A stretch of DNA of 51,743 bases from Pseudomonadota bacterium. GTDB taxonomy: Bacteria; Pseudomonadota; Alphaproteobacteria; ATCC43930; CGMCC-115725. The stretch's first letter is position 1. Each line of letters opens with the position of its first letter. Where the stretch lies: positions 1 through 51,743 of the forward strand of contig JBKOVT010000120.1 of assembly GCA_046724035.1 (NCBI GenBank), given 5' to 3'. A program made the translations under genes and the position numbers. Shown here one piece after another: positions 17,002 to 47,754 of this stretch. The notes beneath the pieces were generated by a model, which worked only from the letters and a program-made list of their open reading frames with translations, was not told the origin of the DNA and ran no database searches.

Positions 17002-17193
17002 ATGAAGACCTACAAGCGAGAGGTCGTGGTCCAACGGCTTGACGAGCGGCGCTATGCACTGGCCGTCGATGGCGTCGTGCGCTACGTCGGCACCGAAGAG
17101 GAATGCCGGCGGCGTCTTGCGATGCTGGTCCCGAAGAAGGAGCGCGCCGACCAGGACAAAGCCTTGGGACGGCTATGGCGCATTCTGCGCTGA
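17002..17193 (+). CDS. hypothetical small protein (63 aa)
   Basis: ORF only; charged, plausible composition. Confidence 0.35.
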   Translation: MKTYKREVVVQRLDERRYALAVDGVVRYVGTEEECRRRLAMLVPKKERADQDKALGRLWRILR

Positions 17194-25270: not shown

Positions 25271-25346
25271 CAGGACTTTCCACCGCGGCTGTCGAATTGC
25301 CCAGTCCCCTAGGCCGGCTATAATCCCCGGCAGGGAGGCAGCGCCA

Positions 25347-25538
25347 ATGCCGGAGGAGCGGGTAGAACGCAAGCTGGCTGCAATCCTCGCTGCCGACGTG
25401 GCCGGCTATAGCAGGTTGGTGGGGCTGGCGAACGAAGTGATCCTGCGCCACTGCCGATGGGGGCGCTGGCGGCCGCGGGGAAGGGGTTGCAATCAGGGGA
25501 CGGTGGTTGTGGCTCCCTGTCGGATGCAACAGACCTGA
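25347..25538 (+). pseudogene. class III adenylate/guanylate cyclase, N-terminal fragment only
   Basis: GGAGG RBS, then MPEERVERKLAAILAADVAGYSRLVG, the typical start of Rhizobiales cyclase-domain proteins. The sequence degenerates after about 30 aa. Confidence 0.5.
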
Positions 25539-25569
25539 CAGCGGCGCGGCCGGAGATGATCCAGCCGGC

Positions 25570-25626
25570 TTACGCCCGGATCGGCACCACGTTGCCGGCC
25601 ATCGGCGTCGACGTGTCGAGAAGCGC
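25570..25626. repeat. 57-nt direct repeat, copy A
   Basis: ttacgcccggatcggcaccacgttgccggccatcggcgtcgacgtgtcgagaagcgc, 55/57 identical to 26748-26804. Confidence 0.9.
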
Positions 25627-25627
25627 A

Positions 25628-26425
25628 TCAGCGGTGCCCGCCGTGACCACCACCGCCGGCATGAAAACCAACACCAAAGAGACCACCGTGAACCCCCCCA
25701 CCACGGAAAGCTCGGTGGAAACCACCCGGATGGAAGTGGTGATTATGGAAAAAACGTGACCAGAGCTCTACCGGAACGCTGTAGGCGTAGTACGGCAATG
25801 AGTAGTCGTCGTGGCTGTATGGCGCGTAATCGTAATAGTCCTGAACGGGAGCCGGTGCTGGGATCGCGGCAATGAGTGTCGCTGGCGTTGGCCTCGGCAG
25901 ACCAGCCGGCGCGGGAAACCATTGGAAAGGCCGATTTAGGAACCTGGGCGGTGCGCCAGGCTGGGGCTGACTAGCCGGGCTCGCAGAAGGCGCGGCTGGT
26001 CGAACCAGAGTTGCGTCGGACTTGGGCTTCAGCGTCATGGTGCCGGATGGACCGCTGAGCGAAACTTGTTGCGCTGAGATGCTGTCGACTCGCCAGTCAT
26101 TCAGTGCCTCGCCCTCCAACAGTGCTACCGACTTCGCGCCGGTCACGGCGAAAATCGCGATGCGCCGGTCCGGTTCGATCACGATACCGCTCAGCCTCAC
26201 ATTGGACGGTCGGAGGTCGCCGGCATGGTCCGTGGATGCGGCTTCCGGAGCGCGTTGCGTTGCGCCGGGTTCGGCTATCTCCCGCGCCTGCGCTCCGGTT
26301 TCCGTCGTCGGCGGGCTTCGCTCCAATAACGTGCTGTCGTGGGTGATAAAACCGCGTCCCAGGAGGATCACGGCTGTAGAGACCACGCACCCGGCGAGGA
26401 GCAAAGCTGGCAAGCGAGTCATCAT
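25628..26425 (-). CDS. membrane-anchored/secreted protein with Pro-rich linker and Gly/His-rich C-terminal tail
   Basis: Internal start MMTRLPALLLAGCVVSTAVILL at 26425. The central block VRLSGIVIEPDRRIAIFAVTGAKSVALLEGEALNDWRVDSISAQQVSLSG is reminiscent of GspC-type beta domains. Tail: HNHHFHPGGFHRAFRGGGVHGGLFGVGFHAGGGGHGGHR. The upstream part of ORF 25628..26914 is judged non-coding. Confidence 0.55.
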   Translation of the reverse strand: MMTRLPALLLAGCVVSTAVILLGRGFITHDSTLLERSPPTTETGAQAREIAEPGATQRAPEAASTDHAGDLRPSNVRLSGIVIEPDRRIAIFAVTGAKSVALLEGEALNDWRVDSISAQQVSLSGPSGTMTLKPKSDATLVRPAAPSASPASQPQPGAPPRFLNRPFQWFPAPAGLPRPTPATLIAAIPAPAPVQDYYDYAPYSHDDYSLPYYAYSVPVELWSRFFHNHHFHPGGFHRAFRGGGVHGGLFGVGFHAGGGGHGGHR

Positions 26426-26639
26426 GTCCGCACAATCGGTGTAGCCGGGACGAGCCTTGGGCGTTCGGGCACCTGCGAGCGGAATAAGTATAGCACAGCT
26501 TGGCGGTGACGCGGCTGGCGGCGGCGCTGCAGGCGGTGGAAGAGGGCCGCGCGGTCCAAGCCGTCGCGCGCTGAACGGGGTGGACCTATCAGGCCACCTT
26601 CGCCTGACGACGACGGAAAGCCACGATTTTCGGCGCGTC

Positions 26640-26810
26640 CCCTGTACCAGGTTCGGCCTACCTCGCCGCAGAACGTCGCCCACGCTTCTGACAGAAGCCG
26701 CCGCTTCTGGAAGCCGTCGCCGAGAGGGGATGTGCCCAGCGCTGGCGTTACGCCCGGATCGGCACGACGTTGCCGGCCATCGGCGTCGACGTGTCGAGGA
26801 GCGCGGCGCG
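26640..26810 (-). pseudogene. tyrosine integrase remnant (C-terminal ~55 aa, scrambled)
   Basis: The minus strand reads ...STPMAGNVVPIR (a box-II-like FRDWAGN region, equal to repeat copy B), then GDGFQKRRLLSEAWATFCGE, a typical P4-type integrase C-terminus. Confidence 0.4.
26748..26804. repeat. 57-nt direct repeat, copy B
   Basis: See copy A. It lies between the stop of the integrase pseudogene (26836) and the second integrase tail. Confidence 0.9.
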
Positions 26811-29486: not shown

Positions 29487-29939
29487 ATGAGCGACCACTA
29501 TCTTCAAGTGATCTCGTTGGTCGAGCGGCTTCATCGGCAATTTCTTGAAGTCGTGAAACTTGAGCTCGACGCGCTAAGAATTCACGAGGTGAACAACGTG
29601 CAAGCACTAATGCTGTTCAACATGGGCGACGCTGAGATATCGGTCGGCGAGTTAACATTGCGCGGTTATTATCTCGGCTCAAACGTATCCTATAACGTTA
29701 AGAAGTTGTCCGAGACGGGTTACCTCGTGGCCGAGCGCTCGGCGCATGATCGCCGCTCGATCCGCGTTCGGCTGACGTCAAAGGGGCGCAACTTGCGGAT
29801 TCGGCTCTCCGAAATGCTTAACCGGCACATCGACATGCTGGCTGAAAGTCAGATCAAGGATAAGGATCTCCAAATCGCGGTTGCGACCCTTCAGCGGCTT
29901 GAGCGGTTCTGGCTGCGGCCCGGCGCCCCCAGCGCTTAG
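29487..29939 (+). CDS. MarR-family winged-helix transcriptional regulator
   Basis: VGELTLRGYYLGSNVSYNVKKLSETGYLVAERSAHDRRSIRVRLTSKGRNL is a typical MarR wHTH plus wing. Lower-GC gene. Confidence 0.75.
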   Translation: MSDHYLQVISLVERLHRQFLEVVKLELDALRIHEVNNVQALMLFNMGDAEISVGELTLRGYYLGSNVSYNVKKLSETGYLVAERSAHDRRSIRVRLTSKGRNLRIRLSEMLNRHIDMLAESQIKDKDLQIAVATLQRLERFWLRPGAPSA

Positions 29940-30139
29940 CCTTCAAGAAGGCGCCATTCCCCAGAGGCCTGGAACTCCGCAGCGCTGCCAGTGAAGGTGT
30001 CGACTTCATTTCCTTGATCGTCCGTTATCAGGACCGAACCCGACATCCCATCCTCGGAAATTTCTATTACTTCGCCGATGAATGTCCCGAAGAGGGCATC
30101 TGCCATAATCCACTTCTGTCCCAGGACAAATTCTTGCAT
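29936..30139 (-). CDS. hypothetical small acidic protein (67 aa)
   Basis: Internal ATG of ORF 29936..30280; low GC; convergent with the MarR gene (4-nt overlap). Confidence 0.35.
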   Translation of the reverse strand: MQEFVLGQKWIMADALFGTFIGEVIEISEDGMSGSVLITDDQGNEVDTFTGSAAEFQASGEWRLLEG

Positions 30140-30438
30140 TAACTTTGCCGACAATGCCTCGGACTCTTGGGGACGAGGCGGATGATTATGGCCGGTTGAG
30201 AGCGTTACCAACGAATTCGTGCAAAAGCATTCAAATTTTGCGTTAATTTTTATCGACGCGCAAAGTCGGCCGGGTTTCAAAGCCGGGTGGGGTCGTCTTC
30301 GTTTACAGGATTCGCCTTGATAATCGCTCCGTCCCGTACCGCCAAAGGCCCGGGCTGCTACTGCCAGCTAGGTTTTTCTCGTTTCGTCACCACCGCACCG
30401 CCTGCAGAGATAGGTAATCTGTCGAAAGTGAGACTTGG

Positions 30439-30582
30439 CTAACGATCCCATGTTTGTTTTGTAATCTCGAATTCTACGTGCTGCTGTGCCGGCTTGTATT
30501 GCAGCATGGCGGCACCGGCCAGAATGCACCCGCTGATGAAAACGCTCACGATGCTGACGGTGATAATAAGAGCTCTGCGCAT
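30439..30582 (-). CDS. possible small lipoprotein (47 aa)
   Basis: GGAGGTGAGCAC precedes the ATG. MRRALIITVSIVSVFISGC carries a lipobox-like ISGC. Below the ORF-track size cut-off. Confidence 0.4.
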   Translation of the reverse strand: MRRALIITVSIVSVFISGCILAGAAMLQYKPAQQHVEFEITKQTWDR

Positions 30583-30730
30583 GTGCTCACCTCCGCGCCG
30601 GCCCCTAACACGGTGATCGTTAACGAGCGGTAAGGCTGGATAGCGCGTTTTCGCTACGGCAGGCGCGCCTATACTCCTAATCAGGAAATGAGGTATGTAT
30701 CGCTACGCACTCCACCGCACGAGGATCATC

Positions 30731-31246
30731 ATGCCGAGAGGCCGTCCGCCGGGAAGACCGGGCAAGACAGCAGCGCGCAAAACAGCAGCGCGGAGAGGCA
30801 CGGCTCGCAAGGCGCCAGCGCGAAGAACCGCAGCCCGGAAGACGACAGCGCGTAAAACGGCAGCGCGCAAAACAGCAACCCGCCGGAATACCGGCGCCCG
30901 AAAAACCGCAGCCCGCCGAACCACAGTTCGAAAGACCGCAGCCCGCAAGGCGCCGGCGCGCAGAACCGCAGCTCGGAAGACCGCAACGCGTAGACCAGCA
31001 ACGCGGCGCACCGCAGCTCGGAAGACTACCGTCCGCAAGACACCAACGCGGCGCACCGCAGCTCGGAAGACCGCAACGCGGAAGCCCGCACGTCGCAACA
31101 CAACAGCGCGCAAGTCTCCCCTGACAAGGCGGCGTAGAACGCCGAAAATCAGCCCGCCGGAACTGCTTCCCACCGAACGATCGCAGGACGAGGAGCAGCG
31201 ATCGGAGCTGACGCCTCGAGAAGAGCTACCGCCCGAGGAGACCTGA
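30731..31246 (+). CDS. histone-H1-like / AlgP-like basic repeat protein
   Basis: GAGGA RBS. MPRGRPPGRPGK is followed by about 25 degenerate (T)AARK(T)/AARR units and an acidic C-terminal tail. The antisense ORF 30703..31386 is a shadow. Confidence 0.75.
   Translation: MPRGRPPGRPGKTAARKTAARRGTARKAPARRTAARKTTARKTAARKTATRRNTGARKTAARRTTVRKTAARKAPARRTAARKTATRRPATRRTAARKTTVRKTPTRRTAARKTATRKPARRNTTARKSPLTRRRRTPKISPPELLPTERSQDEEQRSELTPREELPPEET
30757..31128 (+). repeat. degenerate 15-nt-period coding tandem repeats (AARKT units)
   Basis: Repeated gcagc(g/c)cg(c/g)aa(a/g)ac-type units are visible throughout the gene body. Confidence 0.7.
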
Positions 31247-31659
31247 GCGCGCGGCTTTTTGATGCCCCGCTCCTTACCGTCGCCGCTTCTTCGCCAGATC
31301 AACACGCGCGCGAAATTAGCCCAGCAAATTTGCTGCGTCGTTCGCATGCGACCAGGCGCTTCACCGCCGGTGTACCGAGAAGACAACGATGCCCAGAATG
31401 ACGGGGATCGTGATCATCGCGTTACCCAGTCCATCACCCCCGAAGCCAGCAGCGGGACCGTGGCGCGTCGCTGTGGGCGACGGCGCGTATTCTTTCGGTT
31501 AATCCATTGCAGCGGTAGAGTGCGGTGCCCGGACGCTTCGGTCTCCCTTTGTGTGCTGGGCTCTGTAGTGACCTTGGCCGGGCGAGCTAACCTCAGCAGT
31601 TCGCCCGGTCCATTTTTGCGGATAGCACAACCTTAACTTCTGCCCCGTACGTTCAAGGT

Positions 31660-31941
31660 ATGGCGCTCCTACGCACCATGACGGAAGACCTGGCATTGAA
31701 GATGCTCAAACGCGAGGGCATAGCCGCGATTTGGCGGCTTCATTTGGCGGCAGCCGCGGCACACCGGGAAGGGTATTCGGGTTCTGCGGCTTCCATTGCC
31801 CAAATCGCTGAAGCCGCTGAGGAGGCGTGGTTACGCGCCGAGGAGGCGCGACAAACTGGCCGGCCTGTTGGTTGCGCCGCTCCGAAAATACCTCCTGAGC
31901 CGTGCGGTTATCGGGCTGCCAATATTGCCGGTAGCCTATAA
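31660..31941 (+). CDS. small conserved hypothetical, paralog family C (copy 1)
   Basis: GIAAIWRLHLAAAAAHREGYSGSAASIAQIAEAAEEAWLRAE aligns with GISGIWRLHVAAADAHRTGHPQSAGIVLEIAEVAEEVWMKAE at 49165..49452. Confidence 0.5.
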   Translation: MALLRTMTEDLALKMLKREGIAAIWRLHLAAAAAHREGYSGSAASIAQIAEAAEEAWLRAEEARQTGRPVGCAAPKIPPEPCGYRAANIAGSL

Positions 31942-32375
31942 AACCCGGCGCGGCCTGAAAGTAGCCGAAGGGCTGATCCCTCGAAATTGCGGGATAAAGC
32001 TCGCGGTCTCCGGACTGCCGATGGTGAACATTTGAGATCAACAAGCCCGAAGGTCGGCATCGAGCAAAACTGCCGCACGCGCCTAAACCGGACCGGGACA
32101 GTAATGTGATCCGACAAAAATGAGTAGCCGGGCGTGATGCGTTGGGGGGATGCACGCCCGGCCAATTTCGCCCGGAGAGGATGAGGGATCCTCGGGGCAG
32201 CGCTTGCGTGCGGCTCAAGCCTCCGCTTAATTCACACTCATTCAGAGCATGATTATCGCTGTTCCGGCATGATGTAGATCAGAGGGCGCGAAATGCCAGC
32301 CCCAGCATGCGTCAGGTGCCCGCAATCGCCCGCGCCACTGACGGCAATGCAAAAGCTATCTATTACACAGGCCAA

Positions 32376-33035
32376 CTAGGCAGTCGCAACCTTCCGGGCG
32401 GATGCGCTCCTTCTCGCCGCCCGGATGGAAGACTTCCGAGACCGATTGCTGGCCGTCTTCGCGCTCGTTCTGAGACTCGTTCTGGTATTGCTTTTGCGAC
32501 CAGAATTTGCGGGGCCGGTCTTCCTCGCGCTGGTTCTGCCTTTAGCTTTCTTGGCAATGGATCCAGTCTTCCTCGCGCCGATAGTGCTGCGCCGTGGAGA
32601 CGATTTCTCGGGTTTCGTTACGGATAGCGCTCCGGGTCTTGCCCCCTGGGGTGAGCGTTTGCGACCAAGCCCTGTCGATTTGGCGAGTTGGGAGCGCCGC
32701 TCGGAATAGTTGGGAGCGGTCATCGGATAGTCTGAAAGCAGTCTCCAGCGACTTCTATATTCGGCGACCGACAGCCCATGCCTGGACTGCAAGTGCTTTT
32801 TGAGCATTTGGCCCCTGTATCCGCATTCGATGCAGATGATGTGGTCAGGCCGAACAGAGCGTCGCACCGACACTGCCGGAACACGAGATAGTTCTTCTAC
32901 AACCTCCTTGCCGAGACCCGTAAGTGTCGAATGGACAGCATTGATCAGGCCGGAGATCTGGTCGGTTGCAATTGGGTTGTGCCGGACGTAAGCCGCCACG
33001 ATCTCAGTCGTGAGATGTTGCTTTTCGGCAATCAT
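32376..33035 (-). CDS. mucR: MucR/Ros-family zinc-finger regulator with a long basic C-terminal extension
   Basis: MIAEKQHLTTEIVAAYVRHNPIATDQISGLINAVHSTL...PAVSVRRSVRPDHIICIECGYRGQMLKKHLQSRHGLSVAEYRSRWRLLSDYPMTAPNYSERRSQLAK, then a tail of about 85 aa rich in K/R/S/T. Confidence 0.85.
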   Translation of the reverse strand: MIAEKQHLTTEIVAAYVRHNPIATDQISGLINAVHSTLTGLGKEVVEELSRVPAVSVRRSVRPDHIICIECGYRGQMLKKHLQSRHGLSVAEYRSRWRLLSDYPMTAPNYSERRSQLAKSTGLGRKRSPQGARPGALSVTKPEKSSPRRSTIGARKTGSIAKKAKGRTSARKTGPANSGRKSNTRTSLRTSAKTASNRSRKSSIRAARRSASARKVATA

Positions 33036-33193
33036 GGCGGAAATTCCTCTTAGGACTTGCTGGTCGTGCAATCTTGAAGCATGTCCGCCGATATGAGCGG
33101 GGTCGGTTGGAAAATCAACCTCCGCTGAATACTCAAAATGTTCCAGGCTGGCATTTAGTCGGCATGCTACGTCTCGGAGAAAGGAGGAATTCA
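33036..33193. promoter_or_regulatory. divergent promoter region between the two MucR genes
   Basis: 158-bp lower-GC intergenic spacer between divergent starts. A strong AAGGAGG RBS precedes 33194. No motif could be verified by eye. Confidence 0.25.
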
Positions 33194-33618
33194 ATGGCTG
33201 ACGCGCAATCGACTGCATCGGTCAATCGGGAACTCGCCGCAAGAATTGTGGCTGCATATGTCGGCGCAATCAGGTGCGTTCCGAGCAGATCCCCGTCTTA
33301 ATTTTGACGGTTCATCAGGCACTCGCCGGTCTAGCGAAACCCGAACCTGAAGATGTCGGTCCCAGGACACCCGCAGTCTCGATCCGCCAATCTGTTCGAC
33401 CTGATTACCTTGTGTGCCTTGAATGCGGACGACGCTCTAAAATGCTGCGTCGACATTTAGTAGACGCCCACGGGCTGAGCACGGACGAATATCGGACGTG
33501 TTGGAAACTACGAAGTGATTACCCAATGGTTGCTCCTGCATACAGCGAGCACCGGTCTGGATTGGCAAAGCAGTTTGGTCTGAGCCGCGGTGGACGAAAA
33601 TCGGCCACCATCTGTTAA
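33194..33618 (+). pseudogene. MucR/Ros-family regulator, second copy, frameshifted
   Basis: MADAQSTASVNRELAARIVAAYVGA, frame lost at AA 33268-33269, then VRSEQIPVLILTVHQALAGL...PAVSIRQSVRPDYLVCLECGRRSKMLRRHLVDAHGLSTDEYRTCWKLRSDYPMVAPAYSEHRS. Confidence 0.8.
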
Positions 33619-33695: not shown

Positions 33696-34866
33696 CTACT
33701 GAGCAGACCCCTCGATTCGAACACGTTCTCGGGGCGGTAAATTGACCGGACGATACGACGGGTCTGCGTCAAAGCGCTCGAATACCGAGTAATGCACGCG
33801 GGAGCCGTCGTCGATCCGTCGTGGCTCGCAAAGCGGCAGATACAATCCCAATAGGGAAGGACGCCGCGGCCAGTCGCGCCACTTCACCCGCTTCGGTATG
33901 ATCTCCAGCCGCTTCCAGCCGATGGTCATCGAGTTGTGCAGCTTCGCCGTAAAGCTCGGCGTGACATAGGTCCGTGTGCTGCCCTGTCGCTCCTGCCCGA
34001 GCACAAGATGATTATACATTGATCGGTTGATTTGAAGGCCGTGCTCGACCGCTTCCTCGATCAACCATCCCAGGGGATATTTGGCGGGGCCGCTCTCAGT
34101 CTCGGAGTAGCCGCCTCCGATGTCGGCGTGCACACCTGCGAACCATACTTGTTTGATGTCCTGCGGGCGCACATTGATATTGTCGAACGCGTTTGGTTGA
34201 TAATTTTGCGGCTCGGCCCAACGATTGATCCGAAACATTCTGCGCCGCTCGTCGATGGCGATTGCTTGCCGAAAAATTTCCACGCGGGTTTGTGCGCGTG
34301 TAGGGGAGCGCTTGTAGGCTTGGGAGGTATAGGCGGTCAGGGCGAGGGACAATCACGGAACTTACGGTATGCCAGACGCCTATAAGCTTGATCGGCACAC
34401 GCCGGGTCCCAATGACTCGTTCGAACCCCCATGCAATCTCGAACTCCCCTTCCTGGGCAGCCCGCTTGTAGGCGGTCAAGGCGTAGGAGGCGAGATCGCG
34501 TTGCGGACGCTCCAGCAGGCCGATGAGGTATAGGAAACCCGCAAGAACGCGCATCGTGTATGCGCCGCGGCTGAAGCCGAAAAGATAAACTTGGTCGCCT
34601 TCTGCATACGTGTCGATCAGGAAACGATATGCGCAGAGAACGTCCTCATCCAGGCCATAGCCAGTAAGTAGTCCCCAGACGCCGAGCGCATCGCTTTTCA
34701 AGCGGGACCACGCCTCGCTGTCGCTGATTGTGCCGACACCCGGATGGTAGAAGACCACTTGGTCCTCATTCTTGCGGACGATCCGGTATAGCTTCAGGAC
34801 ATTCGACAGGTTGGCCTCGACCTCATTCCCGGTGCCGTCGCAGCAGATGACGATGTTCTTGGGCAT
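33696..34866 (-). pseudogene. DUF2235 (Tle1-like) alpha/beta hydrolase, frameshifted
   Basis: MPKNIVICCDGTGN, LFGFSRGAYT, GVWHTVSSV, then a frame change near 34281-34290 into VEIFRQAIAIDERRRMF...WFAGVHADIGGGY...PLGWLIEEA. Confidence 0.8.
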
Positions 34867-35579: not shown

Positions 35580-35833
35580 AGGTTCGGCGGTACTGTAGAT
35601 CGGCCGCTTACTGAAGCGCTGAAGGCTCTCCTCGGGTGCACTACCGCGCTCGACTGGCGTTGGGAAAAGACTCCGCGCGGAGTCTTGATCGTGGGCCAGA
35701 TAGGCCGGATCGGGTCAAGCGAAGCTTCCTTTGGGCACCCCTCACTTACGGCGATCGCTCAGTGCGCCCGGGGTCCACCGGCTCGCCTCGAATGCCCTGG
35801 GATAGAGCAGCCCCGGCCCAGAGAAGGTTCCTT
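35580..35833 (+). repeat. ~255-nt non-coding element, copy 1 (candidate structured RNA or MITE-like repeat)
   Basis: Collinear with 39571-39831 from aggttcggcggtactgtagatc to gagaaggttcctt. Indels are not multiples of 3 and no ORF is shared. Internal hairpins are described in the findings. Confidence 0.6.
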
Positions 35834-38021: not shown

Positions 38022-38252
38022 CTATTGGACCCGGTTATCCCCTACCGGCCTCAGCTCTCCACCAAATGCTTCCGCACAGGCTATGGCCTCGCTCTCGACC
38101 TTGAATTCCAAGCGGCATGTGACGCGCTCGTCCTCCGTGGCGCAGCGGAAGGCATCGGGTTCAAAACGCTGCGCGTCCAGCCATTCTCTAATACGCGCCA
38201 TGATTGCAGAGAGCTGTTCGGGCTCACGGTGAATTTCGACCACGTACAACAT
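38022..38252 (-). CDS. paralog family A (copy 3)
   Basis: MLYVVEIHREPEQLSAIMARIREWLDAQRFEPDAFRCATEDERVTCRLEFKVESEAIACAEAFGGEL. Convergent with copy 2, 25 nt apart. Confidence 0.65.
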   Translation of the reverse strand: MLYVVEIHREPEQLSAIMARIREWLDAQRFEPDAFRCATEDERVTCRLEFKVESEAIACAEAFGGELRPVGDNRVQ

Positions 38253-38642
38253 GCGCGTGCTTTACTCCACATTCGTTTAGCTGAAAGTTAAATAGCCGCT
38301 GTCCAATGGAACAGTGACAACGGATGGCCGCTGCTACTAATCCCGAGGAGCGACTACTCTCAGGAGCATTTTAGGAAGTCGGGCCGCAAACATCCCCGCC
38401 TCATGCCTCGAATCAGAAACGCGTCTGCGTTGCCGGGAATGGGATCCGCGCGGCAAGGCTGTCGTGTCGATCAGTTGGGGTAACTCGCCCGCTACGAGAC
38501 TACGACCACAGGAGACGCGCGATTGCAATGGGCCGCTTAAAGATAAATTTCGTTGAAAATACTGGATACCTTATGAAACGCTCAACTGTCGTTTCCCATC
38601 CGGCGGCATTCGCTGCCGTTCTCCTGCCGAAGAAATTCATTG

Positions 38643-39044
38643 ATGGTTGGCGATCCGCCGGAAGCTGCGCCAAAGACGGTCCTTGTTGTCGAGGATAACG
38701 AGCTTAATCTGAAGCTGCTGAACGATCTGCTTGAGTTCAGGGGATATACAGTGATTGCAACGCGCTTGGGGGAGCCGGCACTTGAACTGGCCCGACAATA
38801 CAAGCCCGCTTTGATCCTAATGGACGTTCAACTTCCTGATATTTCTGGAATGGAAGCTACTCGACGGCTCAAGAGCGACCAGGAAACGCGCGCCATCCCC
38901 ATTATTGCGGTAACTGCGTTTGCCATGTCTGGCGATGAGGCGAGAATACTCGCGAGCGGATGCGATGCTTACGTTTCTAAGCCATTCAATGTAATCGATT
39001 TCCTAAAGTTGGTTGAGCACTGGACAAGGGGGGCCAGCTCATAG
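38643..39044 (+). CDS. single-domain response regulator (CheY/DivK-like receiver)
   Basis: VLVVEDNELNLKLLNDLL...LILMDVQLPDISGMEATRRLK...PIIAVTAFAMSGDEARILASGCDAYVSKPF. Confidence 0.9.
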   Translation: MVGDPPEAAPKTVLVVEDNELNLKLLNDLLEFRGYTVIATRLGEPALELARQYKPALILMDVQLPDISGMEATRRLKSDQETRAIPIIAVTAFAMSGDEARILASGCDAYVSKPFNVIDFLKLVEHWTRGASS

Positions 39045-39570: not shown

Positions 39571-39831
39571 AGGTTCGGCGGTACTGTAGATCAGCCGCTT
39601 GCTGAAGCGCTGAAGGCGTTCGCTCCGTACACTACCGCGCCTCGACTCGCGCAGTTAGGAAAAGACTCCGCGCGGGGTCTTGATCGTGGGCCAGATAGGC
39701 CGGGTCGGGATCGAGCGAAGGTTCCTACTGACCCACCCACCACTTACGGCGATCGCTTGGTGCGCCCCGGGTCCACCGGCTCGGCTCGAATGCCCTGGAT
39801 AGAGCAGCCCCGGACCCCGAGAAGGTTCCTT
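39571..39831 (+). repeat. ~255-nt non-coding element, copy 2
   Basis: See 35580-35833. Same orientation, 3,991 bp downstream. Confidence 0.6.
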
Positions 39832-40818: not shown

Positions 40819-41367
40819 TCACAATAGGACGTGCACGATCTCCTTAAACGGCCGAGGCTCGAGAAAGTGCCGTCGCCGCATATCGTGGTCGATGTGCAGA
40901 AATACCTGTGCCACCAAGATCTGGTTCACCCGTTCGCCGTCGTCGGACAACGGCATGAATAAGACCTTGATATGGCGCTCCGGTCCCCGATGCTGGGGCG
41001 AGATGAACAGACATTCGGAAAAGAGGGCGCGATGTAGGCGCACGCATTCGTCATAGAGGGCCAGGACATGGGTCTTGTACTCCGGCCCAGGCAATACCTC
41101 ATCGAGATATCGGCCTGTTGCGTTCATGCCAAACGCATCGGCATTCTCAGTCCCGATCAGGCGATAGCGATAACGGCCCGGTGGCAGCACTTCGACGAGC
41201 ATCAGGATCGGGAGAAGCTTCGGGATATCGACCGGATCAATGTCGCGGCGTCGAGGCAGCCGCCCGTCGATCGATTGGAGCACCCAGTATTCGAACGCCG
41301 CCATCAGGCGAGCATCGGTGATTGGCGACAGGGTATTTGCCGCATCGAGAGTGGCGGTGAGGGGCAT
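40819..41367 (-). CDS. PAS-like (PAS_5/DUF1457-type) domain protein
   Basis: FEYWVLQSIDGRLPRRRDIDPVDIPKLLPILMLVEVLPPGRYRYRLIGTENADAFGMNATGRYLDEV... is the typical pattern of this Rhizobiales PAS family. Confidence 0.65.
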   Translation of the reverse strand: MPLTATLDAANTLSPITDARLMAAFEYWVLQSIDGRLPRRRDIDPVDIPKLLPILMLVEVLPPGRYRYRLIGTENADAFGMNATGRYLDEVLPGPEYKTHVLALYDECVRLHRALFSECLFISPQHRGPERHIKVLFMPLSDDGERVNQILVAQVFLHIDHDMRRRHFLEPRPFKEIVHVLL

Positions 41368-41525
41368 CCACGAAGCTTACGGCGGTTTTCACCAAGATTG
41401 TATGAACCCTGTGCAGTACCACCGCAAGCGATCCTCCCCGAGCGTTGATCCACCAGACGCGGATTACCACACATAAAATTTTAATCCATTGTTGCTAGAT
41501 TGCTGCCGATCATTAGAGGTGATGC

Positions 41526-42101
41526 ATGGAATTTGACCCCCGGTCCGAGCTGATCAGCATATCGAATGATGATGCCGCGGCATGTGTGCTCGATCTGGAA
41601 AAGGGTCTTGTGCTTCTCATTAAGGCGATCGAGGCCTGCAGGCGCCGCAACGAGGGTCGCCCACGATCGGCAGCCTTATTGGCCGTCTCGATCGACAATA
41701 TGCAATCGGTCACTGACCTTTTTGGACCCCATGTCACCGAGCCGGTGTTCACCGGGCTAGCATCCCGCATCAAGGAATGCCTGCGAAGCAGCGACCTCAT
41801 CGCTCGCCTGAGCAAGAATCAGTTGGGCGTGGTGCTGCCGTATTTCCGCTTCAATGGAGCTGCAGTCGTGATTAAGAGAATCCTCGCGCTCCGGGCCAAA
41901 CCGACCCTCGCGACGCATTTTGGCACCGTCGATCTGAAATTCTCCGTCGGAAGCGTCTTCTTTCCCGATCCGAACTTGGGGACGGCCGACATCATTATCC
42001 GGGCCCAAGCTGCGGTTGGCTATGAACGGACGGCAAATCAACGGGCTGTGGAATTGACGCGCTCCGTTCGTGAGCAGGTTAATACTTTGAGATCAGCATA
42101 A
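41526..42101 (+). CDS. degenerate GGDEF-like domain protein
   Basis: ALLAVSIDNMQSVTDLFGPHVTEPVFTGLASRIKECLRSSDLIARLSKNQLGVVLP...FSVGSVFFP...ADIIIRAQAAV has GGDEF-fold spacing, but the signature reads SKNQL. Confidence 0.6.
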   Translation: MEFDPRSELISISNDDAAACVLDLEKGLVLLIKAIEACRRRNEGRPRSAALLAVSIDNMQSVTDLFGPHVTEPVFTGLASRIKECLRSSDLIARLSKNQLGVVLPYFRFNGAAVVIKRILALRAKPTLATHFGTVDLKFSVGSVFFPDPNLGTADIIIRAQAAVGYERTANQRAVELTRSVREQVNTLRSA

Positions 42102-42284
42102 GCCCGTTGAAATGGTAAGCGGAAAATCTCAGATACCGACATTCAGCCCGGGCATATTTCCCTTCAAGCGCGGGATCGCCAACACGCGCGATCCGGTATC
42201 GATCTCATCCCACCAGCAGACGGCAAATTCCCGTCGCGCTAGCACGCGTTTGGCACGGTAATCGCGCAGTGACTCAGGCCCGAA

Positions 42285-42809
42285 ATGCTTGACGCAGCAC
42301 CGCAGTCTGATCGCCGGGACGGCTCCCGCCAACGAGTGCTGAAGAAAGCTCTTATTGTTTTCAACAATGGGCATTCAACTGTCGGCTGTCACATCCTCGA
42401 CATCTCGGAAGTCGGTGCGAAGCTCCTGCCAACCGATGTTGCGTCCTGCCCGCGTGAATTTGCGCTAAAGTCCCTGACCGGCGAACCGCGCCAGTGCGAG
42501 GTAATTTGGTGCAGAGGCGGTGCATTGGGTGTCCGCTTTCTGGATCTAGATCAGTCGGAGAAAACCGCTGAGGATCGCCGTCGGCATACCCGGCGCCGTG
42601 CCTTGCAGCCGGCGCTCATTGTCTGCAACAGGGGGCTCTCTACGATGGTTTGCCAAGTCATCGACATCTCGGAAATGGGAGCAAAGCTGATCCTGGCCGA
42701 TGCCTTTGCATGCCCGAGAGAGTTCGTGCTCAAGCCCAGGAATGGTGGACCTCGCCACTGCGCTGTTCTTTGGCGCAGAGGCACCGCCATGGGCGTCCGG
42801 TTTTTCTGA
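42285..42809 (+). CDS. tandem PilZ-domain protein
   Basis: Two repeats of RR..R-x-(A/K)ALIV.N.G.ST..C.+.DISE.GAKL......CPREF.LK......R.C.V.W.RG.A+GVRF. Confidence 0.8.
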   Translation: MLDAAPQSDRRDGSRQRVLKKALIVFNNGHSTVGCHILDISEVGAKLLPTDVASCPREFALKSLTGEPRQCEVIWCRGGALGVRFLDLDQSEKTAEDRRRHTRRRALQPALIVCNRGLSTMVCQVIDISEMGAKLILADAFACPREFVLKPRNGGPRHCAVLWRRGTAMGVRFF

Positions 42810-42927
42810 TCACAGAGAGCGGTGATTGGTACGCGGGGGCGTCCTAAAATCGGATGTTCATCTATCGGCCCGAGGCGTGACTGAGCCTATTAAAGGGTTG
42901 CTGTCCCACTCCGCTCTGGCTTTGCAG

Positions 42928-43641
42928 TCACCCGTGGGACGCTTTCGAGCGTTCAAGAACCTCCGCCAATTTGTTCGCGAAGCTTGGGTCATTTCCGGGA
43001 TTTGAGTTGAACGACGAATGCACAATCCTGACTGGATCTTCGGTGTGGTACCGCCCTTCGGCATACGTCATGTACAGTTCCTTGGTGACTCCCGTTCCAA
43101 CGAGTACCGCTCTGCACTGATGTCCCTGCTTTGATAGCCAGGTAATCATTGCGGTTGTCATGTAGCTAAAGATTTTAGGTGACCCGAAAGCAGAAATTCC
43201 ATGAAACCGTTGGCCGTCCGAACCCCAGATCGTGTACTCCGTTCCGGAATGGCCGGAGAGTTCCCATAACGACTTCTTGACGAAATTGATATCGGAGAAG
43301 TCGTTTCGATAGATCGTTGCATCCGGAACGCCGCCTGAATAACCGGCCCAGGCCCATTCCGGGCACCCTGGGTTCTGCGTTTTGTGAGCCTCGTAAACGG
43401 CTAAATCGCTGCCGTAAAATGCGCCATGTGATACACCATCTTTGATCAGATCATAGGCTGTGTTGATGAGCTGTGCAGTATCGAGGTCGCCGCCTCGGTC
43501 GGGATGATGTCGATGCAGCAACTCCCGGCGCGCAACCTTGATGGCCTCGCGGCTCATCCCGGTAACATCGACGCCCAACCGTCGAAAGAGCATGATCGCG
43601 TCCTGAGCGCGAGCGGGCACGATAAATTCGGTTTTGGGCAT
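42928..43641 (-). CDS. J-domain protein with uncharacterised C-terminal domain
   Basis: REAIKVARRELLHRHHPDRGGDLDTAQLINTAYDLI carries the HPD tripeptide. The following ~165 aa is unrecognised and aromatic/Gly-rich. Confidence 0.75.
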   Translation of the reverse strand: MPKTEFIVPARAQDAIMLFRRLGVDVTGMSREAIKVARRELLHRHHPDRGGDLDTAQLINTAYDLIKDGVSHGAFYGSDLAVYEAHKTQNPGCPEWAWAGYSGGVPDATIYRNDFSDINFVKKSLWELSGHSGTEYTIWGSDGQRFHGISAFGSPKIFSYMTTAMITWLSKQGHQCRAVLVGTGVTKELYMTYAEGRYHTEDPVRIVHSSFNSNPGNDPSFANKLAEVLERSKASHG

Positions 43642-44047
43642 TCTTGCTGATTGAGAATCGGATGGACAATAGTCAATCCAGCGTACAAAAAAATGGTTAC
43701 TCCTGAATAAATCGACCGCTTCCGCACCCTACGTTGCGATCGCGATAGCTAAGACCAAGCACCCGCAGCGGCACGCGGTAGTCAGATGCGCTTGCACCCC
43801 CTCAACGAGGGCCCCATCAACTCGTTGACGCACACGATTATCGTCTTCGACGAGCGAGCCCGCCGCGTTTGCGGGGCCTTCTCGTAGCTAATCGAAAATT
43901 AAGCGTAAGCTGAAGTAAATTATCAAGATTATCTCATTTACTGTATCGGCCGACACGCGAGGCAGATGAGATCGCGCTCCTCGGCGGAGCGAGCTCTGAC
44001 GGCTTTCGCCAACATCGCTTATGGCGGCTGCTCGGGTACGAGGAAAC

Positions 44048-44398
44048 ATGCAGGTCGACGGGACAGATGCGGACGGTGTGATTGACGCTCTAGACCGAGT
44101 ACCGGAAATGCCGCGGCCTGGGCAGCGCTGGTCGGTGCGGTGGAAGGCGGCCGTTATTGAAGCCGTGCGTGGCGGCTGGGCAATCGAAGAGGTGTGCCAG
44201 CTTTACAACATCTCCATCGACGAGTTTGTAGCTTGGGAACGGGATCTTGACCGCAACGGAATCCCCGGCCTGCGGTCTACTCGTTACCAGATTTACCGCG
44301 ATACTGAGATACAGGGGCCTAGATGTCAGCCGAACCGAGAACCGGTTACTGCATCGCCGGATCGAGCTGTCCCATCGCATTTGCGAGGGAATACGTAA
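44048..44398 (+). CDS. DUF1153-like HTH protein with C-terminal extension
   Basis: RWSVRWKAAVIEAVRGGWAIEEVCQLYNISIDEFVAWERDLDRNGIPGLRSTRYQIYR. Confidence 0.6.
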   Translation: MQVDGTDADGVIDALDRVPEMPRPGQRWSVRWKAAVIEAVRGGWAIEEVCQLYNISIDEFVAWERDLDRNGIPGLRSTRYQIYRDTEIQGPRCQPNREPVTASPDRAVPSHLRGNT

Positions 44399-44454
44399 AT
44401 CGAATCGGCTAGACCCACGTTATCCATCCTAGCCAATCAGGGACAGGGAGCTAT

Positions 44455-46068
44455 ATGCGTCCCTCGGCTTTCGAGACCAATTCGTTGGCGCCGGTCCGCA
44501 TTCAACCGCAGCCATACGCTGCGGTCGATGTCGGTGGTCAGCTCGGCAGTCTCATAGATGCCATCGAAGATTCCGCTCAGCCGGTCTGCATTTATAGAGC
44601 GAAGCGGTATCTCTACGTGAATCGAGCCTACGCGACGATGCTGGGCTTTAATGCGACTGACGAGCTCCTACAACTTTCGGATATTATCTCACTTGTCCAT
44701 CCAGACGATCGCCCGATGGCAGGAACGGCGACGCGCGCAAGGCTAGCGGGCGAGCACGCATCCACTCGCCACGAATTCCAAATGTTGCGACGAGAGGGGT
44801 CGGTGATCTGGGTCGAGACCGTCGGATCACACATTCGCTGGGAGGGTCAGTCAGCGGCGCTGGTGTTTGCCAACAACATAACCGACCGAAAGCTCATCGA
44901 AGAGGCTCTGCAGCAATCCGAGCGGCTCTTCTCGAAGATGTTCCACTCCTCGCCCGACGTGATGATCCTGAGTACCGTAGCCGATGGGCGTCTTGTCGAG
45001 GTCAATGACACGTTCCTGAAGCTACGTCAGCTCAAACGCGAAGACGTGATCGGCCGCACGGGCGCTGAACTAGGGCTTTGGCACGATGGCGCGGAGCGTG
45101 AACGGGTCATCGAGGCGGTTCGCATAGATGGCATGGCGCGCAATATCCCCAGCGCTCACCAATCCCTCGATCCCGAGAAAGGTCTGCGCCATTACGCCGC
45201 TTCGGCCGAACTTGTTCGGCTCGGAGAGGACGAACTGCTCCTATGGGTGGCCCGCGACATTACCGATCTGCGCCGAACCGAAGAGGAGCTGCGCCGCAGC
45301 AAACGAGGTGCTGAGGAGGCTTCGCGGGCCAAGAGTGAATTTCTGGCTCATATGAGCCACGAGCTGCGGACACCGCTTAATGCCATTCTCGGTTTTTCGG
45401 AAGTCATTCGCGACAGAGTCTACGGGCCGGATGCATCGTCGAAGTACACGGAATACGCTGAATGCATTTATAGCGCGGGTGAACATCTCCTGCAGATCAT
45501 CAACGACGTACTTGCGCTTTCAAAGGTGGAACACGGAAAGCTCACGTTGCAGGAGAGCGACTTTTCCGCTGAGGAGCTTATCAATGACTGTCTGCGCATG
45601 GTGCGCCAAGCAGCCAAAAAAGCTGGTCTTCAGCTAAACGCAAGTCCTGTCGATCCGAAGCTCGTTATCCGCGCTGACGAGCGCCTGATGCGACAAGTCC
45701 TGCTCAATTTGCTCTCTAACGCGATTAAATTCACTCCGCCGCAAGGGAGAGTATCTCTGTCAATCGAGGTCCTTCGTCCAACGAATGGTGCACGCATCAT
45801 CGTTTCTGACACCGGTATCGGGATGAGTGAGGCGGATATTGCGATCGCGCTGACCCCGTTCGGACAGATCGAGGGCGGATTAACTCGCCGCCACGAAGGC
45901 ACCGGCCTTGGGCTTCCATTGACCCGGTCACTGGTTGAATTGCATGGCGGCGAGTTGAAAGTCCGCAGTGAGCCGAACGTTGGGACGACGGTGGCAATCA
46001 CGCTGCCGACCGAGCGAACGGTCTCGTCTTCGTCGATTGATAAGCCCACGGAAATGCCCGTTCGATGA
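44455..46068 (+). CDS. PAS-PAS sensor histidine kinase
   Basis: Two PAS-like regions, H-box EFLAHMSHELRTPLNAILGFSE, N box LLNLLSNAIKFT, G boxes DTGIGM and GTGLGLPLTRSLVELHGG. 537 aa, intact. Confidence 0.92.
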   Translation: MRPSAFETNSLAPVRIQPQPYAAVDVGGQLGSLIDAIEDSAQPVCIYRAKRYLYVNRAYATMLGFNATDELLQLSDIISLVHPDDRPMAGTATRARLAGEHASTRHEFQMLRREGSVIWVETVGSHIRWEGQSAALVFANNITDRKLIEEALQQSERLFSKMFHSSPDVMILSTVADGRLVEVNDTFLKLRQLKREDVIGRTGAELGLWHDGAERERVIEAVRIDGMARNIPSAHQSLDPEKGLRHYAASAELVRLGEDELLLWVARDITDLRRTEEELRRSKRGAEEASRAKSEFLAHMSHELRTPLNAILGFSEVIRDRVYGPDASSKYTEYAECIYSAGEHLLQIINDVLALSKVEHGKLTLQESDFSAEELINDCLRMVRQAAKKAGLQLNASPVDPKLVIRADERLMRQVLLNLLSNAIKFTPPQGRVSLSIEVLRPTNGARIIVSDTGIGMSEADIAIALTPFGQIEGGLTRRHEGTGLGLPLTRSLVELHGGELKVRSEPNVGTTVAITLPTERTVSSSSIDKPTEMPVR

Positions 46069-46167
46069 AGCCCGTCTTGCGCATGGGAATGGCAAGCGCC
46101 CTAGCAAAATCCGCTGCTGGGGCAGATACCGGACCTAGGAAGATTTAACGCGAGCTGCCGATCGCGA

Positions 46168-46590: not shown

Positions 46591-46694
46591 CGGTGTTTGT
46601 GAACGAGAGGCCGATCCTGACCCGATAAGCGTTGTGGCGATCTCAGGAAAATTCAGAGACCGGTTACGGATCCGTAAAAGATCGGCGGCAGTTT

Positions 46695-47369: not shown

Positions 47370-47383
47370 CGCTAGGTGCCGCG

Positions 47384-47683: not shown

Positions 47684-47754
47684 AGCACCCCCTTCGGATT
47701 TCCAGCAGCATAGGAGGGGATGGTTGCGAGTGATAGCCGTTTTTCACTGTTTGC

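What the first reader, a model, noticed from the sequence alone, without database searches (positions are those of the whole stretch)
29487..33618. Island-borne nucleoid-protein cluster: MarR + histone-H1-like repeat protein + two divergent MucR/Ros genes
Four DNA-binding genes sit within 4 kb of comparatively low-GC DNA. They are a MarR wHTH regulator, a 171-aa KTAAR-repeat basic protein with an acidic tail, a MucR with a basic tail, and a second MucR transcribed divergently from a 158-bp spacer. In alphaproteobacteria MucR/Ros proteins act as H-NS-like silencers of AT-rich acquired DNA. A horizontally acquired element carrying its own MucR paralogs plus an H1-like protein resembles the stealth strategy of plasmid-encoded H-NS homologs. 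The heavy pseudogenisation of the rest of the island fits long-term silencing. I am not aware of this combination being described as a module.
Basis: inference. Interest (0 to 1): 0.65.

Follow-up and report, generated by a model that had tools for sequence, protein, structure and literature searches.

The report
Accessory MucR pair beside unrelated DNA-binders
Four DNA-binding genes do sit together in low-GC accessory DNA of an uncultured soil alphaproteobacterium, but only the back-to-back pair of MucR "gene-silencer" paralogs recurs in other genomes, so the proposed four-gene module is a local juxtaposition of a kind of island-borne silencer copy that is already described.

Summary
All four genes are at the stated coordinates: an LdtR-like MarR (29487-29939), a 171-aa AT-hook/KTAAR-repeat protein with an acidic tail (30731-31246), a 219-aa long-tailed MucR (32376-33035, minus strand) and a second MucR 158 bp away on the other strand. 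In this window the second MucR carries a 1-bp deletion. Sibling contigs have it intact at 141 aa.

The four-gene "module" does not hold up. It occurs only in a 97-100 % identical soil population. In more distant relatives the cluster splits into three independent units.
- The divergent short and long-tail MucR pair keeps a conserved ~158-bp spacer in 16 loci (55-76 % MucR1 identity).
- MarR travels with a convergent 114-aa ORF, without MucR or the H1-like gene.
- The H1-like gene has orthologues of the same architecture at 49-57 % identity, with other neighbours.

Metatranscriptome contigs cover the H1-like gene and the MucR1 5' half in 7 of 8 runs, so these two genes are probably expressed.

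Island-, plasmid- and phage-borne MucR paralogs, frameshifted copies, MucRs with extra domains and the co-transfer idea are already published (PMC7710501). This is a modest new variant of a known kind.

The parts
29487..29939 (+). LdtR-like MarR-family winged-helix regulator, 150 aa
   Evidence: Pfam MarR_2 1.2e-10 and HTH_27. NCBIfam LdtR NF047395 scores 168 bits, below the 250 cutoff. More than 7900 homologues, mostly 149 aa.
29936..30280 (-). orf114, conserved convergent partner of the MarR; function unknown
   Evidence: No Pfam, NCBIfam or PADLOC hit. Lies immediately downstream of MarR relatives in L014-L020 at 54-63 % identity.
30442..30582 (-). 47-aa small ORF with a lipobox-like ISGC motif and a GGAGGTG Shine-Dalgarno
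   Evidence: Read from the sequence. Called as a gene in sibling contigs. Identical in siblings.
30731..31246 (+). HMGA/H1-like protein, 171 aa: N-terminal RGRP/PGRP AT-hook-like motif, about 23 KTAAR-type pentapeptides, an RRRR run and an acidic Pro/Glu tail
   Evidence: Pfam HC2 59.5 bits. NCBIfam Hc2 and Burkholderia H1-like models score below cutoff. Orthologues with the same architecture at 49-57 % identity. Population SNPs split 16 synonymous to 15 non-synonymous, with no indels. Metatranscriptome contigs in 7 of 8 runs.
31660..31941 (+). orf93, small ORF convergent with MucR1; weak homologues recur near MucR1 relatives
   Evidence: tblastn hits at 36-53 % in L010, L012, L013, L146 and L157, plus a paralog at window 49150-49359. 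No family hit.
32376..33035 (-). MucR1: long-tailed Ros/MucR zinc-finger protein, 219 aa (core 1-125, basic Ser/Thr/Lys/Arg/Ala tail 126-219)
   Evidence: ROS_MUCR 2.6e-40 covering profile positions 4-123 of 123. Residues 51-128 align to Ros87 (2JSP), E 1.7e-24. C68, C71, H81 and H86 are invariant in 21 relatives. More than 100 homologue clusters of 200-235 aa. RNA contigs over the 5' half in 7 of 8 runs.
33036..33193 (.). 158-bp divergent regulatory spacer, GC about 0.50, with a conserved TTGACTT-N17-CATATC promoter-like element facing MucR1
   Evidence: Spacer length is 153-160 bp in 12 of the 16 relative loci, and the sequence blocks are conserved. Local GC 0.495.
33194..33618 (+). MucR2: short Ros/MucR paralog, frameshifted in this window by a 1-bp deletion between 33262 and 33263; intact 141 aa in sibling contigs
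   Evidence: Alignment A2. ORFs 33074-33301 and 33274-33618 lie in different frames. ROS_MUCR 2.5e-35 for the 3' frame. An intact 141-aa gene is called in L001 and L006-L009.
33696..34866 (-). Tle1-like phospholipase (DUF2235) pseudogene, inserted between the MucR pair and its usual response-regulator neighbours
   Evidence: Two overlapping ORFs each hit PF09994. Intact at 390 aa in L008.
38025..39044 (.). 76-aa gene (38025-38252, -) and single-domain response regulator (38643-39044, +), which accompany the MucR pair in distant relatives
   Evidence: Response regulator at 74-77 % identity next to the pair in L010/L122 and L012/L138. Window coordinates. Pfam Response_reg.

Best explanation
The 4-kb stretch is a lineage-specific juxtaposition of three independently inherited DNA-binding units. 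It lies inside a decaying, probably immobile, low-GC accessory region of an uncultured soil or rhizosphere alphaproteobacterium.

Unit 1 is the only part that behaves as a module. It is a divergently transcribed pair of accessory Ros-type (Cys2His2) MucR paralogs: a 141-aa short form and a 219-aa form carrying a ~95-aa H1-like basic tail. They share a conserved ~158-bp spacer of about 50 % GC that holds their promoters.

Inferred mechanism for unit 1:
- Like characterised MucR/Ros proteins, both bind AT-rich DNA through the zinc-finger domain and self-associate through the conserved N-terminal domain.
- They auto- and cross-regulate at the shared spacer.
- The tail of MucR1 adds sequence-independent DNA affinity.
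- They therefore act as element-borne nucleoid-associated or silencer-type proteins that tune expression of the surrounding AT-richer accessory genes.

In this haplotype MucR2 is knocked out by a frameshift, so MucR1 acts alone.

Unit 2 is an LdtR-like MarR with its convergent 114-aa partner. It is a separate two-gene cassette.

Unit 3 is an HMGA-like protein: an AT-hook, KTAAR repeats and an acidic tail. It belongs to a small family of its own and is expressed in situ. It probably binds the minor groove of AT-rich DNA.

Shown here: gene identities, the frameshift, the conservation patterns and the presence in RNA libraries. Inferred: every statement about DNA binding, silencing and regulation.
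For: Identities. The Zn ligands C-x2-C-x9-H-x4-H are present and invariant.

Conserved MucR pair: 15 loci in the metagenome scan plus L198 show MucR2 divergent from MucR1. The spacer is 153-160 bp in 12 of them and 435 bp in 4. The spacer sequence is conserved, with a promoter-like TTGACTT-N17-CATATC.

Independence of the units: MarR with orf114 is conserved without MucR or HC2 in L014-L020. H1-like orthologues sit next to Ku or other small genes, with no MucR or MarR. No HC2 or MarR lies downstream of MucR1 relatives.

Accessory, decaying context: low GC. A 5'-truncated ApbA fragment abuts a serine recombinase that lacks its catalytic N-terminus. Only integrase fragments remain. No close copy exists in 185,579 species-representative genomes.

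Functional state: MucR1 is 100 % conserved in the population. The H1-like gene shows a third-position excess of SNPs and no frame-breaking variant. RNA contigs cover the H1-like gene and the MucR1 5' half in 7 of 8 metatranscriptomes, and cover MucR2 only once, as a variant contig in X27.

The silencer role of MucR and the existence of island copies are established in PMC9410896, PMC8857273, PMC10746212 and PMC7710501.
Against: - No binding, silencing or interaction data exist for these proteins.
- The neighbourhood samples are small: 8, 3 and 2 informative loci, mostly short metagenome contigs.
- In only 10 of 39 MucR1 relatives with at least 600 bp of upstream DNA is the pair present, so even the pair is restricted to a subclade.
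- The host's chromosomal MucR was not seen.
- Metatranscriptome contigs can contain DNA and carry no strand information.
- In 19 of 80 named-genome loci a true LdtR lies downstream of the core mucR in the same convergent geometry. The MucR-MarR proximity here may therefore not be accidental.
Confidence: 0.55

Rival explanations
1. The four genes form a co-adapted 'stealth' chromatin module that travels with a mobile island. It coats the island so that the host silencer pool is not titrated, as plasmid H-NS paralogs do.
For: All four are DNA-binding proteins in low-GC DNA. The order is identical across the 97-100 % identical population from many soils. Co-transfer of MucR with AT-rich DNA has been proposed (PMC7710501).
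Against: There is no co-occurrence outside the near-identical population. No conjugation or transfer genes were seen, and both recombinases look degenerate. MucR2 is already a pseudogene in this haplotype.
Confidence: 0.1
2. The MucR pair is an ordinary local transcription-factor pair and not a nucleoid silencer. It would control a few nearby accessory genes: the single-domain response regulator with its 76-aa partner, exopolysaccharide genes or c-di-GMP genes. This matches the classical Ros/MucR role in EPS regulation.
For: The pair keeps company with the 133-134-aa response regulator and the 75-76-aa gene in L010 and L012 at 58-74 % identity. In L012, glycosyltransferase and Bac_transf genes follow MucR1 directly. 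GGDEF, PilZ and PAS genes lie 8-10 kb away in the window. S. meliloti MucR2 and MucR3 bind DNA without bridging it.
Against: Neighbours other than the response regulator vary widely. The long basic tail and the conserved N-terminal oligomerisation region fit architectural binding better.
Confidence: 0.2
3. The island proteins are anti-silencers or decoys. The H1/HMGA-like protein, the LdtR-like MarR or the MucR paralogs would compete with or hetero-oligomerise with the host MucR to keep island genes on. The analogues are EnrR, H-NST, or SlyA acting against H-NS.
For: A genomic-island-encoded nucleoid protein that counteracts H-NS is documented (EnrR, PMC9023278). MarR-family counter-silencers are established knowledge. 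A true LdtR neighbours the core mucR in 19 of 80 alphaproteobacterial loci. The H1-like gene and MucR1 are the best-represented parts in RNA libraries.
Against: There is no direct evidence. The MarR cassette and the MucR pair travel separately in closer relatives. The MarR appears in only 1 of 8 RNA runs.
Confidence: 0.1
4. The cluster is functionless debris: regulator genes that happen to lie together in a decaying island.
For: Several frameshifted genes, including MucR2. Regulators are common in accessory DNA, and the chance estimate is not extreme (inference).
Against: MucR1, MarR and the H1-like gene are intact in every contig. The spacer and the Zn ligands are conserved across 55-90 % relatives. 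The H1-like gene has a synonymous excess. There is an RNA signal.
Confidence: 0.05

Closest known systems
MucR1 and the frameshifted second MucR copy (mucR2) of Sinorhizobium fredii CCBAU45436 (PMC7710501, PMC8857273, PMC9410896)
   Same: A Ros/MucR zinc-finger silencer family with an extra copy on AT-richer accessory DNA. The second copy carries a frameshift. N-terminal oligomerisation domain plus C-terminal DNA-binding domain.
   Different: Here both copies sit head-to-head on one island with a conserved spacer. One has a ~95-aa basic tail. Zn coordination is Ros-type C-x2-C, whereas the canonical core MucRs from named genomes aligned have C-x2-D. The chromosomal copy of this host is unknown.
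Island-borne MucR copies of Methylobacterium sp. 4-46 and 'MucR carrying additional domains' (PMC7710501)
   Same: MucR paralogs located in AT-rich genomic islands, some with extra C-terminal parts. The review explicitly proposes co-transfer with AT-rich targets.
   Different: The review does not describe a conserved divergent short and long pair, nor this tail (as far as the text I read shows).
Plasmid- or island-encoded H-NS paralogs (Sfh, H-NS-R27, Pmr): the 'stealth' model
   Same: A paralog of the lineage's xenogeneic silencer encoded on acquired DNA.
   Different: A different protein family. Transmissibility, titration relief and the presence of a host paralog are all untested here, and the element looks immobile.
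Chlamydial Hc2 / bacterial histone H1-like repeat proteins (PF07382, NF038052, NF038053)
   Same: Lys/Arg/Ala/Thr pentapeptide repeats and extreme basicity. The Pfam HC2 score is above the gathering score.
   Different: Scores lie far below both NCBIfam cutoffs. The protein has its own conserved N-terminal PGRP motif and an acidic tail. The similarity is compositional, not orthology.
Eukaryotic HMGA, and the HMGA-like / H1-like domain of Myxococcus CarD (PMC8156234)
   Same: An AT-hook (RGRP) combined with a basic region and an acidic C-terminal stretch.
   Different: One or two hooks at the extreme N-terminus, followed by a long H1-like repeat. It is a stand-alone 171-aa protein. No homology is demonstrated.
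LdtR of Liberibacter and Sinorhizobium (PMC3999280, NF047395)
   Same: The best-matching family. A MarR fold aligned over residues 3-142.
   Different: 168 bits against the 250 cutoff, and 149-150 aa instead of about 166-170. It is paired with orf114 and not with an L,D-transpeptidase, and it lies in an accessory context.

Membership tests
Ros/MucR (PF05443) | Full-length match to the family profile above the curated score | tested here: met
   MucR1 scores 137.7 bits over profile positions 4-123 of 123. The 3' frame of MucR2 scores 121.6 bits over positions 19-122 (cutoff 25.4).
Ros/MucR (PF05443) | Zinc-coordinating residues of the prokaryotic zinc finger (Ros: C-x2-C-x9-H-x4-H) | tested here: met
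   MucR1 has C68, C71, H81 and H86, invariant in 21 relatives and aligned to Ros87, 2JSP. MucR2 has CLEC...H...H.
Ros/MucR (PF05443) | Conserved N-terminal oligomerisation region | tested here: met
   MucR1, and the intact MucR2 allele from L001, align with seven canonical MucRs through the TxxIVAAYV...LI..VH..L block. In the window allele of MucR2 this region is cut by the frameshift.
Ros/MucR (PF05443) | Binding and bridging of AT-rich DNA, with silencing | not testable with these tools
   Needs EMSA, a bridging assay and ChIP-seq.
'Stealth' silencer paralog of a mobile element (Sfh / H-NS-R27 type) | Encoded on a transmissible element | tested here: inconclusive
   Low GC and recombinase genes are present. 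However, the serine recombinase lacks the Resolvase domain and the first ~90 positions of the integrase profile. The tyrosine integrase is fragmented. No transfer genes appeared among the ORFs scanned. No empty-site contig was found.
'Stealth' silencer paralog of a mobile element (Sfh / H-NS-R27 type) | The host has a chromosomal orthologue whose pool would otherwise be titrated | not testable with these tools
   Only 51.7 kb of the host is available. No close genome exists among the species representatives.
Proposed MarR + H1-like + MucR + MucR module | Conserved co-occurrence in other genomes | tested here: not met
   Found only in contigs at least 97 % identical to the window. Absent from 8 MucR1-relative, 3 MarR-relative and 2 H1-like-relative informative loci.
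Hc2 / histone H1-like (PF07382; NF038052, NF038053) | Score above the curated cutoffs | tested here: inconclusive
   Pfam: 59.5 against 40, met. NCBIfam: 56.7 against 135 and 47.9 against 80, not met. The similarity is driven by the repeats.
AT-hook / HMGA-like | A G-R-P core flanked by basic residues, plus an acidic tail | tested here: met
   RGRP at residues 3-6 and PGRP at 7-10. P-G-R-P is conserved in four of the five orthologues (the fifth has P-R-G-P), and all have an acidic Pro/Glu tail. This is motif-level evidence only; minor-groove binding is untested.
LdtR (NF047395 equivalog) | Score of at least 250 bits, and adjacency to an L,D-transpeptidase or the core glyA/hemB context | tested here: not met
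   168 bits. The neighbour orf114 has no YkuD or other domain. True LdtRs in L097 and L055 score 253 and 247 bits; L097 has the core glyA/hemB context, while L055 lies among other metabolic genes.

The most novel reading that the evidence does not exclude
MucR-type silencers and LdtR-type MarR regulators may be an ancient functional couple, silencer and counter-silencer, analogous to H-NS and SlyA. The core genes are neighbours (glyA-mucR-ldtR-hemB; a true LdtR lies 0.2-7 kb downstream of and convergent to mucR in 19 of 80 loci from several alphaproteobacterial orders). This island would carry accessory paralogs of both in the same geometry. It would also carry a MucR fused to an H1-like tail and an HMGA-like protein, making a portable chromatin toolkit for accessory DNA.
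Probability: 0.12. Interest if true: 0.7.

Novelty: new variant of a known kind. Interest (0 to 1): 0.35.

Why it matters
MucR is the alphaproteobacterial counterpart of H-NS. How its many paralogs divide labour is an open question (PMC7710501, PMC13297338).

Three things found here give concrete, testable material for that question:
- a conserved head-to-head pair of a short and a long-tailed MucR with a conserved control region;
- evidence that the long-tailed copy is expressed in rhizosphere soils;
- an uncharacterised HMGA-like protein family, also seen in those RNA libraries.

The tests are whether a built-in H1-like tail replaces oligomer-based bridging, and whether short and long forms make heteromers. 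The specific claim of a four-gene module should not be carried forward.

Tried and rejected
- Near-identical DNA in the plasmid collection: none.
- Single-protein scan of species-representative genomes: no relative. The alignment-based scan gave only generic MucRs at 57 % identity or less, so the host taxon stays unresolved. It is an alphaproteobacterium by gene content.
- tRNA genes: none. Rfam families: none. These give no att-site or RNA lead.
- I looked for the missing ApbA N-terminal half at the right GC boundary to delimit the island. It was not found, so the right end is defined by GC only.
- Direct repeats give no convincing island-flanking att pair.
- No empty-site contig turned up. 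Several sibling contigs simply stop near 9.6-9.8 kb.
- PADLOC and PHROGs: no defence or phage family for the cluster genes.
- IMG/VR holds only generic MucRs at 40-48 % identity.
- A sigma-54-like TGGCAT-N5-CGGCA motif in the spacer is not conserved in relatives and was dropped.
- Synonymous versus non-synonymous counts cannot tell the H1-like ORF from its antisense ORF (30703-31386), because the wobble positions coincide. The strand rests on the Shine-Dalgarno, the start codon, the Pfam hit and the orthologue architecture.
- A crude scan for basic ORFs in high-GC loci was too noisy to use.
- The consensus promoter and terminator scan was not above the shuffled expectation.

Full report
**Observation**

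The window has about 66 % GC at 1-9 kb and beyond 50 kb, and 54-62 % in between.

- The MarR (29487-29939, +) hits Pfam MarR_2 and HTH_27. Its best NCBIfam match is LdtR, at 168 bits against a cutoff of 250.
- The 171-aa basic protein (30731-31246, +) has a GAGGA Shine-Dalgarno 5 nt upstream of the ATG. Its Pfam HC2 score is 59.5 bits, but both NCBIfam H1-like models score below their cutoffs.
- That protein has RGRP and PGRP at residues 3-10 and 23 pentapeptides ending in two basic residues. Net charge is +54 over residues 1-138, and the last 33 residues are acidic.
- MucR1 (32376-33035, -) matches ROS_MUCR over the whole profile and Ros87 (2JSP) at E 1.7e-24. It carries a 94-aa tail of net charge +27.
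- The second MucR starts 158 bp away on the other strand.

**Correction**

MucR2 is broken in this window. Alignment with sibling contigs shows one C missing between 33262 and 33263. The ATG frame stops at 33301, and the MucR frame resumes only at GTG 33274.

L001 and L006-L009 carry an intact 141-aa gene. L002-L005 do not. L004 is 99.975 % identical to the window over 11.9 kb without a gap. The frameshift is therefore a real, polymorphic allele.

**Context**

The left flank holds core metabolic genes. At about 9.7 kb a 5'-truncated ketopantoate-reductase fragment abuts a large serine recombinase. That recombinase lacks the Resolvase domain and aligns to the phage integrase profile only from position 90.

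Other decay in the region:
- Tyrosine-integrase fragments lie at 27.2-27.8 kb.
- The Tle1-like gene next to MucR2 is split here and intact (390 aa) in L008.
- MT-A70 is frameshifted relative to L101.
- Two small ORFs are frameshifted relative to L002.

The region is therefore accessory and decaying. The breaks are polymorphic within a population that is about 99 % identical, so the decay is recent. I found no empty-site contig, no tRNA gene and no att-like repeat.

The stretch occurs in at least 20 soil, rhizosphere and root metagenome runs. No close copy exists in 185,579 species-representative genomes or in the plasmid collection.

**Test of the module**

The exact MucR1 protein lies on many soil contigs with the same gene order, but these are the same population. 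Beyond that population the cluster falls apart into three units.

(a) The MucR pair. MucR1 belongs to a subfamily of 200-235-aa MucRs with a basic Ser/Thr/Lys/Arg/Ala tail ending in SARRVATA.
- Among 73 relatives below 95 % identity from the metagenome scan, 15 show a MucR2-type gene divergent from MucR1. L198 adds a sixteenth.
- The spacer is 153-160 bp in 12 of the 16 and 435 bp in the other 4.
- The spacer sequence is conserved, including a TTGACTT-N17-CATATC element facing MucR1, and has about 50 % GC.
- The pair is present in only 10 of 39 relatives with enough upstream sequence, so it marks a subclade.
- In L010 and L012 the pair keeps a single-domain response regulator and a 75-76-aa gene beside it. 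In the window these now lie about 5 kb away, beyond the Tle1-like insertion.
- Eight relatives have at least 2.5 kb downstream of MucR1: L011, L012/L138, L013, L123, L139, L165, L180 and L198. None has an H1-like gene. Only L011 has a MarR, as a fragment 7 kb away.

(b) The MarR cassette. The MarR has more than 7900 homologues.
- In L014-L020 (77-85 % identity) it is always followed by a convergent homologue of orf114 (54-63 % identity).
- No MucR or H1-like gene lies within the 3-8 kb available.

(c) The H1-like gene. It has true orthologues at 49-57 % identity with the same architecture: an N-terminal PGRP motif, a variable number of KTAAR repeats, an RRRR run and an acidic Pro/Glu tail.
- Their two available contexts (Ku and small ORFs) contain no MucR or MarR.

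The samples are small, and I say so.

**Unexpected counter-observation**

In 19 of 80 MucR loci from named genomes, an LdtR-type MarR lies 0.2-7 kb downstream of mucR on the opposite strand. The genomes include Micropepsaceae, Parvibaculum, Rhodobiaceae, Parvularculaceae, Caulobacterales and others. This is the same geometry as in the window.

These are true LdtRs, at 253 and 247 bits. In L097 the setting is a core glyA-mucR-ldtR-hemB context. The window's MarR clade is a shorter paralog scoring 168-181 bits.

Closer relatives of each island gene travel separately, so I treat the resemblance as a lead and not as evidence for a module.

**Are the genes alive?**

- MucR1 is invariant in the population, and its Zn ligands are invariant across 55-90 % relatives.
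- The H1-like gene is up to 3 % divergent among siblings, while its neighbours are about 0 % divergent. Its 31 SNPs split 16 synonymous to 15 non-synonymous, with no indel. One RNA contig carries an in-frame 90-nt repeat deletion.
- In eight metatranscriptomes, assembled contigs cover the H1-like gene in 7 and the 5' half of MucR1 in 7. Most of the MucR1 contigs end 20-30 nt upstream of the ATG.
- MucR2 is covered only once, as a variant contig in X27, and the MarR only once.

This uneven, reproducible pattern argues for real transcripts. Contigs carry no strand information and can include DNA.

**Comparison with what is known**

MucR is an established H-NS-like bridger and silencer of AT-rich DNA (PMC9410896, PMC8857273, PMC10746212). 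The 2020 review (PMC7710501) already reports:
- multiple paralogs;
- 15 of 31 copies in AT-rich islands of Methylobacterium sp. 4-46;
- plasmid- and phage-borne copies;
- a frameshifted non-functional second copy in S. fredii;
- MucRs with additional domains;
- the hypothesis that MucR and its AT-rich targets are co-transferred, with the explicit parallel to island- and plasmid-borne H-NS, MvaT, Rok and Lsr2.

Basic C-terminal extensions are also common. 29 of the 150 nearest 50 %-cluster representatives align into the MucR1 tail beyond residue 160. Some core MucRs end in an AT-hook-like KRGRGRPRK.

What appears to be new is narrower:
- the conserved divergent short and long-tail pair with its conserved control region;
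- the Ros-type Cys2His2 site in both copies, whereas the canonical core MucRs from named genomes that I aligned have C-x2-D;
- the HMGA-like family.

**Verdict**

The module interpretation is not supported. The biology is a modest variant of a published theme. All mechanistic statements about binding and silencing are inference.

Noticed in passing
window 30442-30582 (-): A 47-aa ORF (MRRALIITVSIVSVFISGC...) with a lipobox-like ISGC and a strong Shine-Dalgarno, between orf114 and the H1-like gene. It is conserved in sibling contigs. A 78 % partial match lies near a MucR1 relative in L163.
   Followed up: partly
L021-L100, e.g. L097 8310-12262 and L055 9890-12246: The core mucR is followed by a convergent true LdtR (253 and 247 bits) in 19 of 80 named-genome loci. 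In L097 the order is glyA-mucR-ldtR-hemB. This looks like a conserved core synteny across several alphaproteobacterial orders.
   Followed up: partly
window 9182-11577: A 5'-truncated ApbA/PanE fragment directly abuts a large serine recombinase. The recombinase lacks the Resolvase catalytic domain and the first ~90 positions of the integrase profile. This suggests a deletion across the island's left junction and an immobilised element.
   Followed up: partly
window 35580-35833 and 39571-39831: A direct repeat of about 260 nt (86-95 % identity), 4 kb apart, flanking the response regulator and small-ORF block.
   Followed up: no
window 25282-26610: A 1.33-kb segment that is absent from sibling contig L005, so it is a polymorphic indel. 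57-nt direct repeats lie at 25570-25626 and 26748-26804 around a 428-aa ORF with no family hit.
   Followed up: no
window 12336-13624 (-): The MT-A70 DNA methyltransferase is split into two overlapping ORFs here. It is an intact 429-aa gene in L101 and L102, which differ from the window by a single indel.
   Followed up: partly
window 40819-48393: A signalling block on the same island: PAS_5, GGDEF, PilZ, a PAS histidine kinase and a response regulator. c-di-GMP is a published anti-silencing signal for MucR (PMC12560781).
   Followed up: no
L190 329-2313; window 49626-50570 and ~17002-17193: An orthologue of the H1-like gene sits next to Ku. The window's island ends near an ATP-dependent DNA ligase. 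The 77- and 82-aa neighbours of the H1-like orthologues in L190 and L191 are homologous to a small ORF at about 17.0-17.2 kb in the window.
   Followed up: partly
window 30731-31246; RNA run X31: The H1-like gene is far more variable among sibling contigs (up to 3 %) than its neighbours (about 0 %). One metatranscriptome contig carries an in-frame 90-nt (six-repeat) deletion from 30769 to 30860.
   Followed up: partly
window 31660-31941 and 49150-49359: orf93 has a 50 % identical paralog near the right end of the island. It also has weak homologues near MucR1 relatives in L010, L012, L013, L146 and L157.
   Followed up: partly
L097 and L040 (MucR C-termini): Some canonical chromosomal MucRs end in short Lys-rich, AT-hook-like tails (KRGRGRPRKSA, EKKRGRRPKQA). 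Basic or AT-hook extensions on MucR are therefore recurrent.
   Followed up: no
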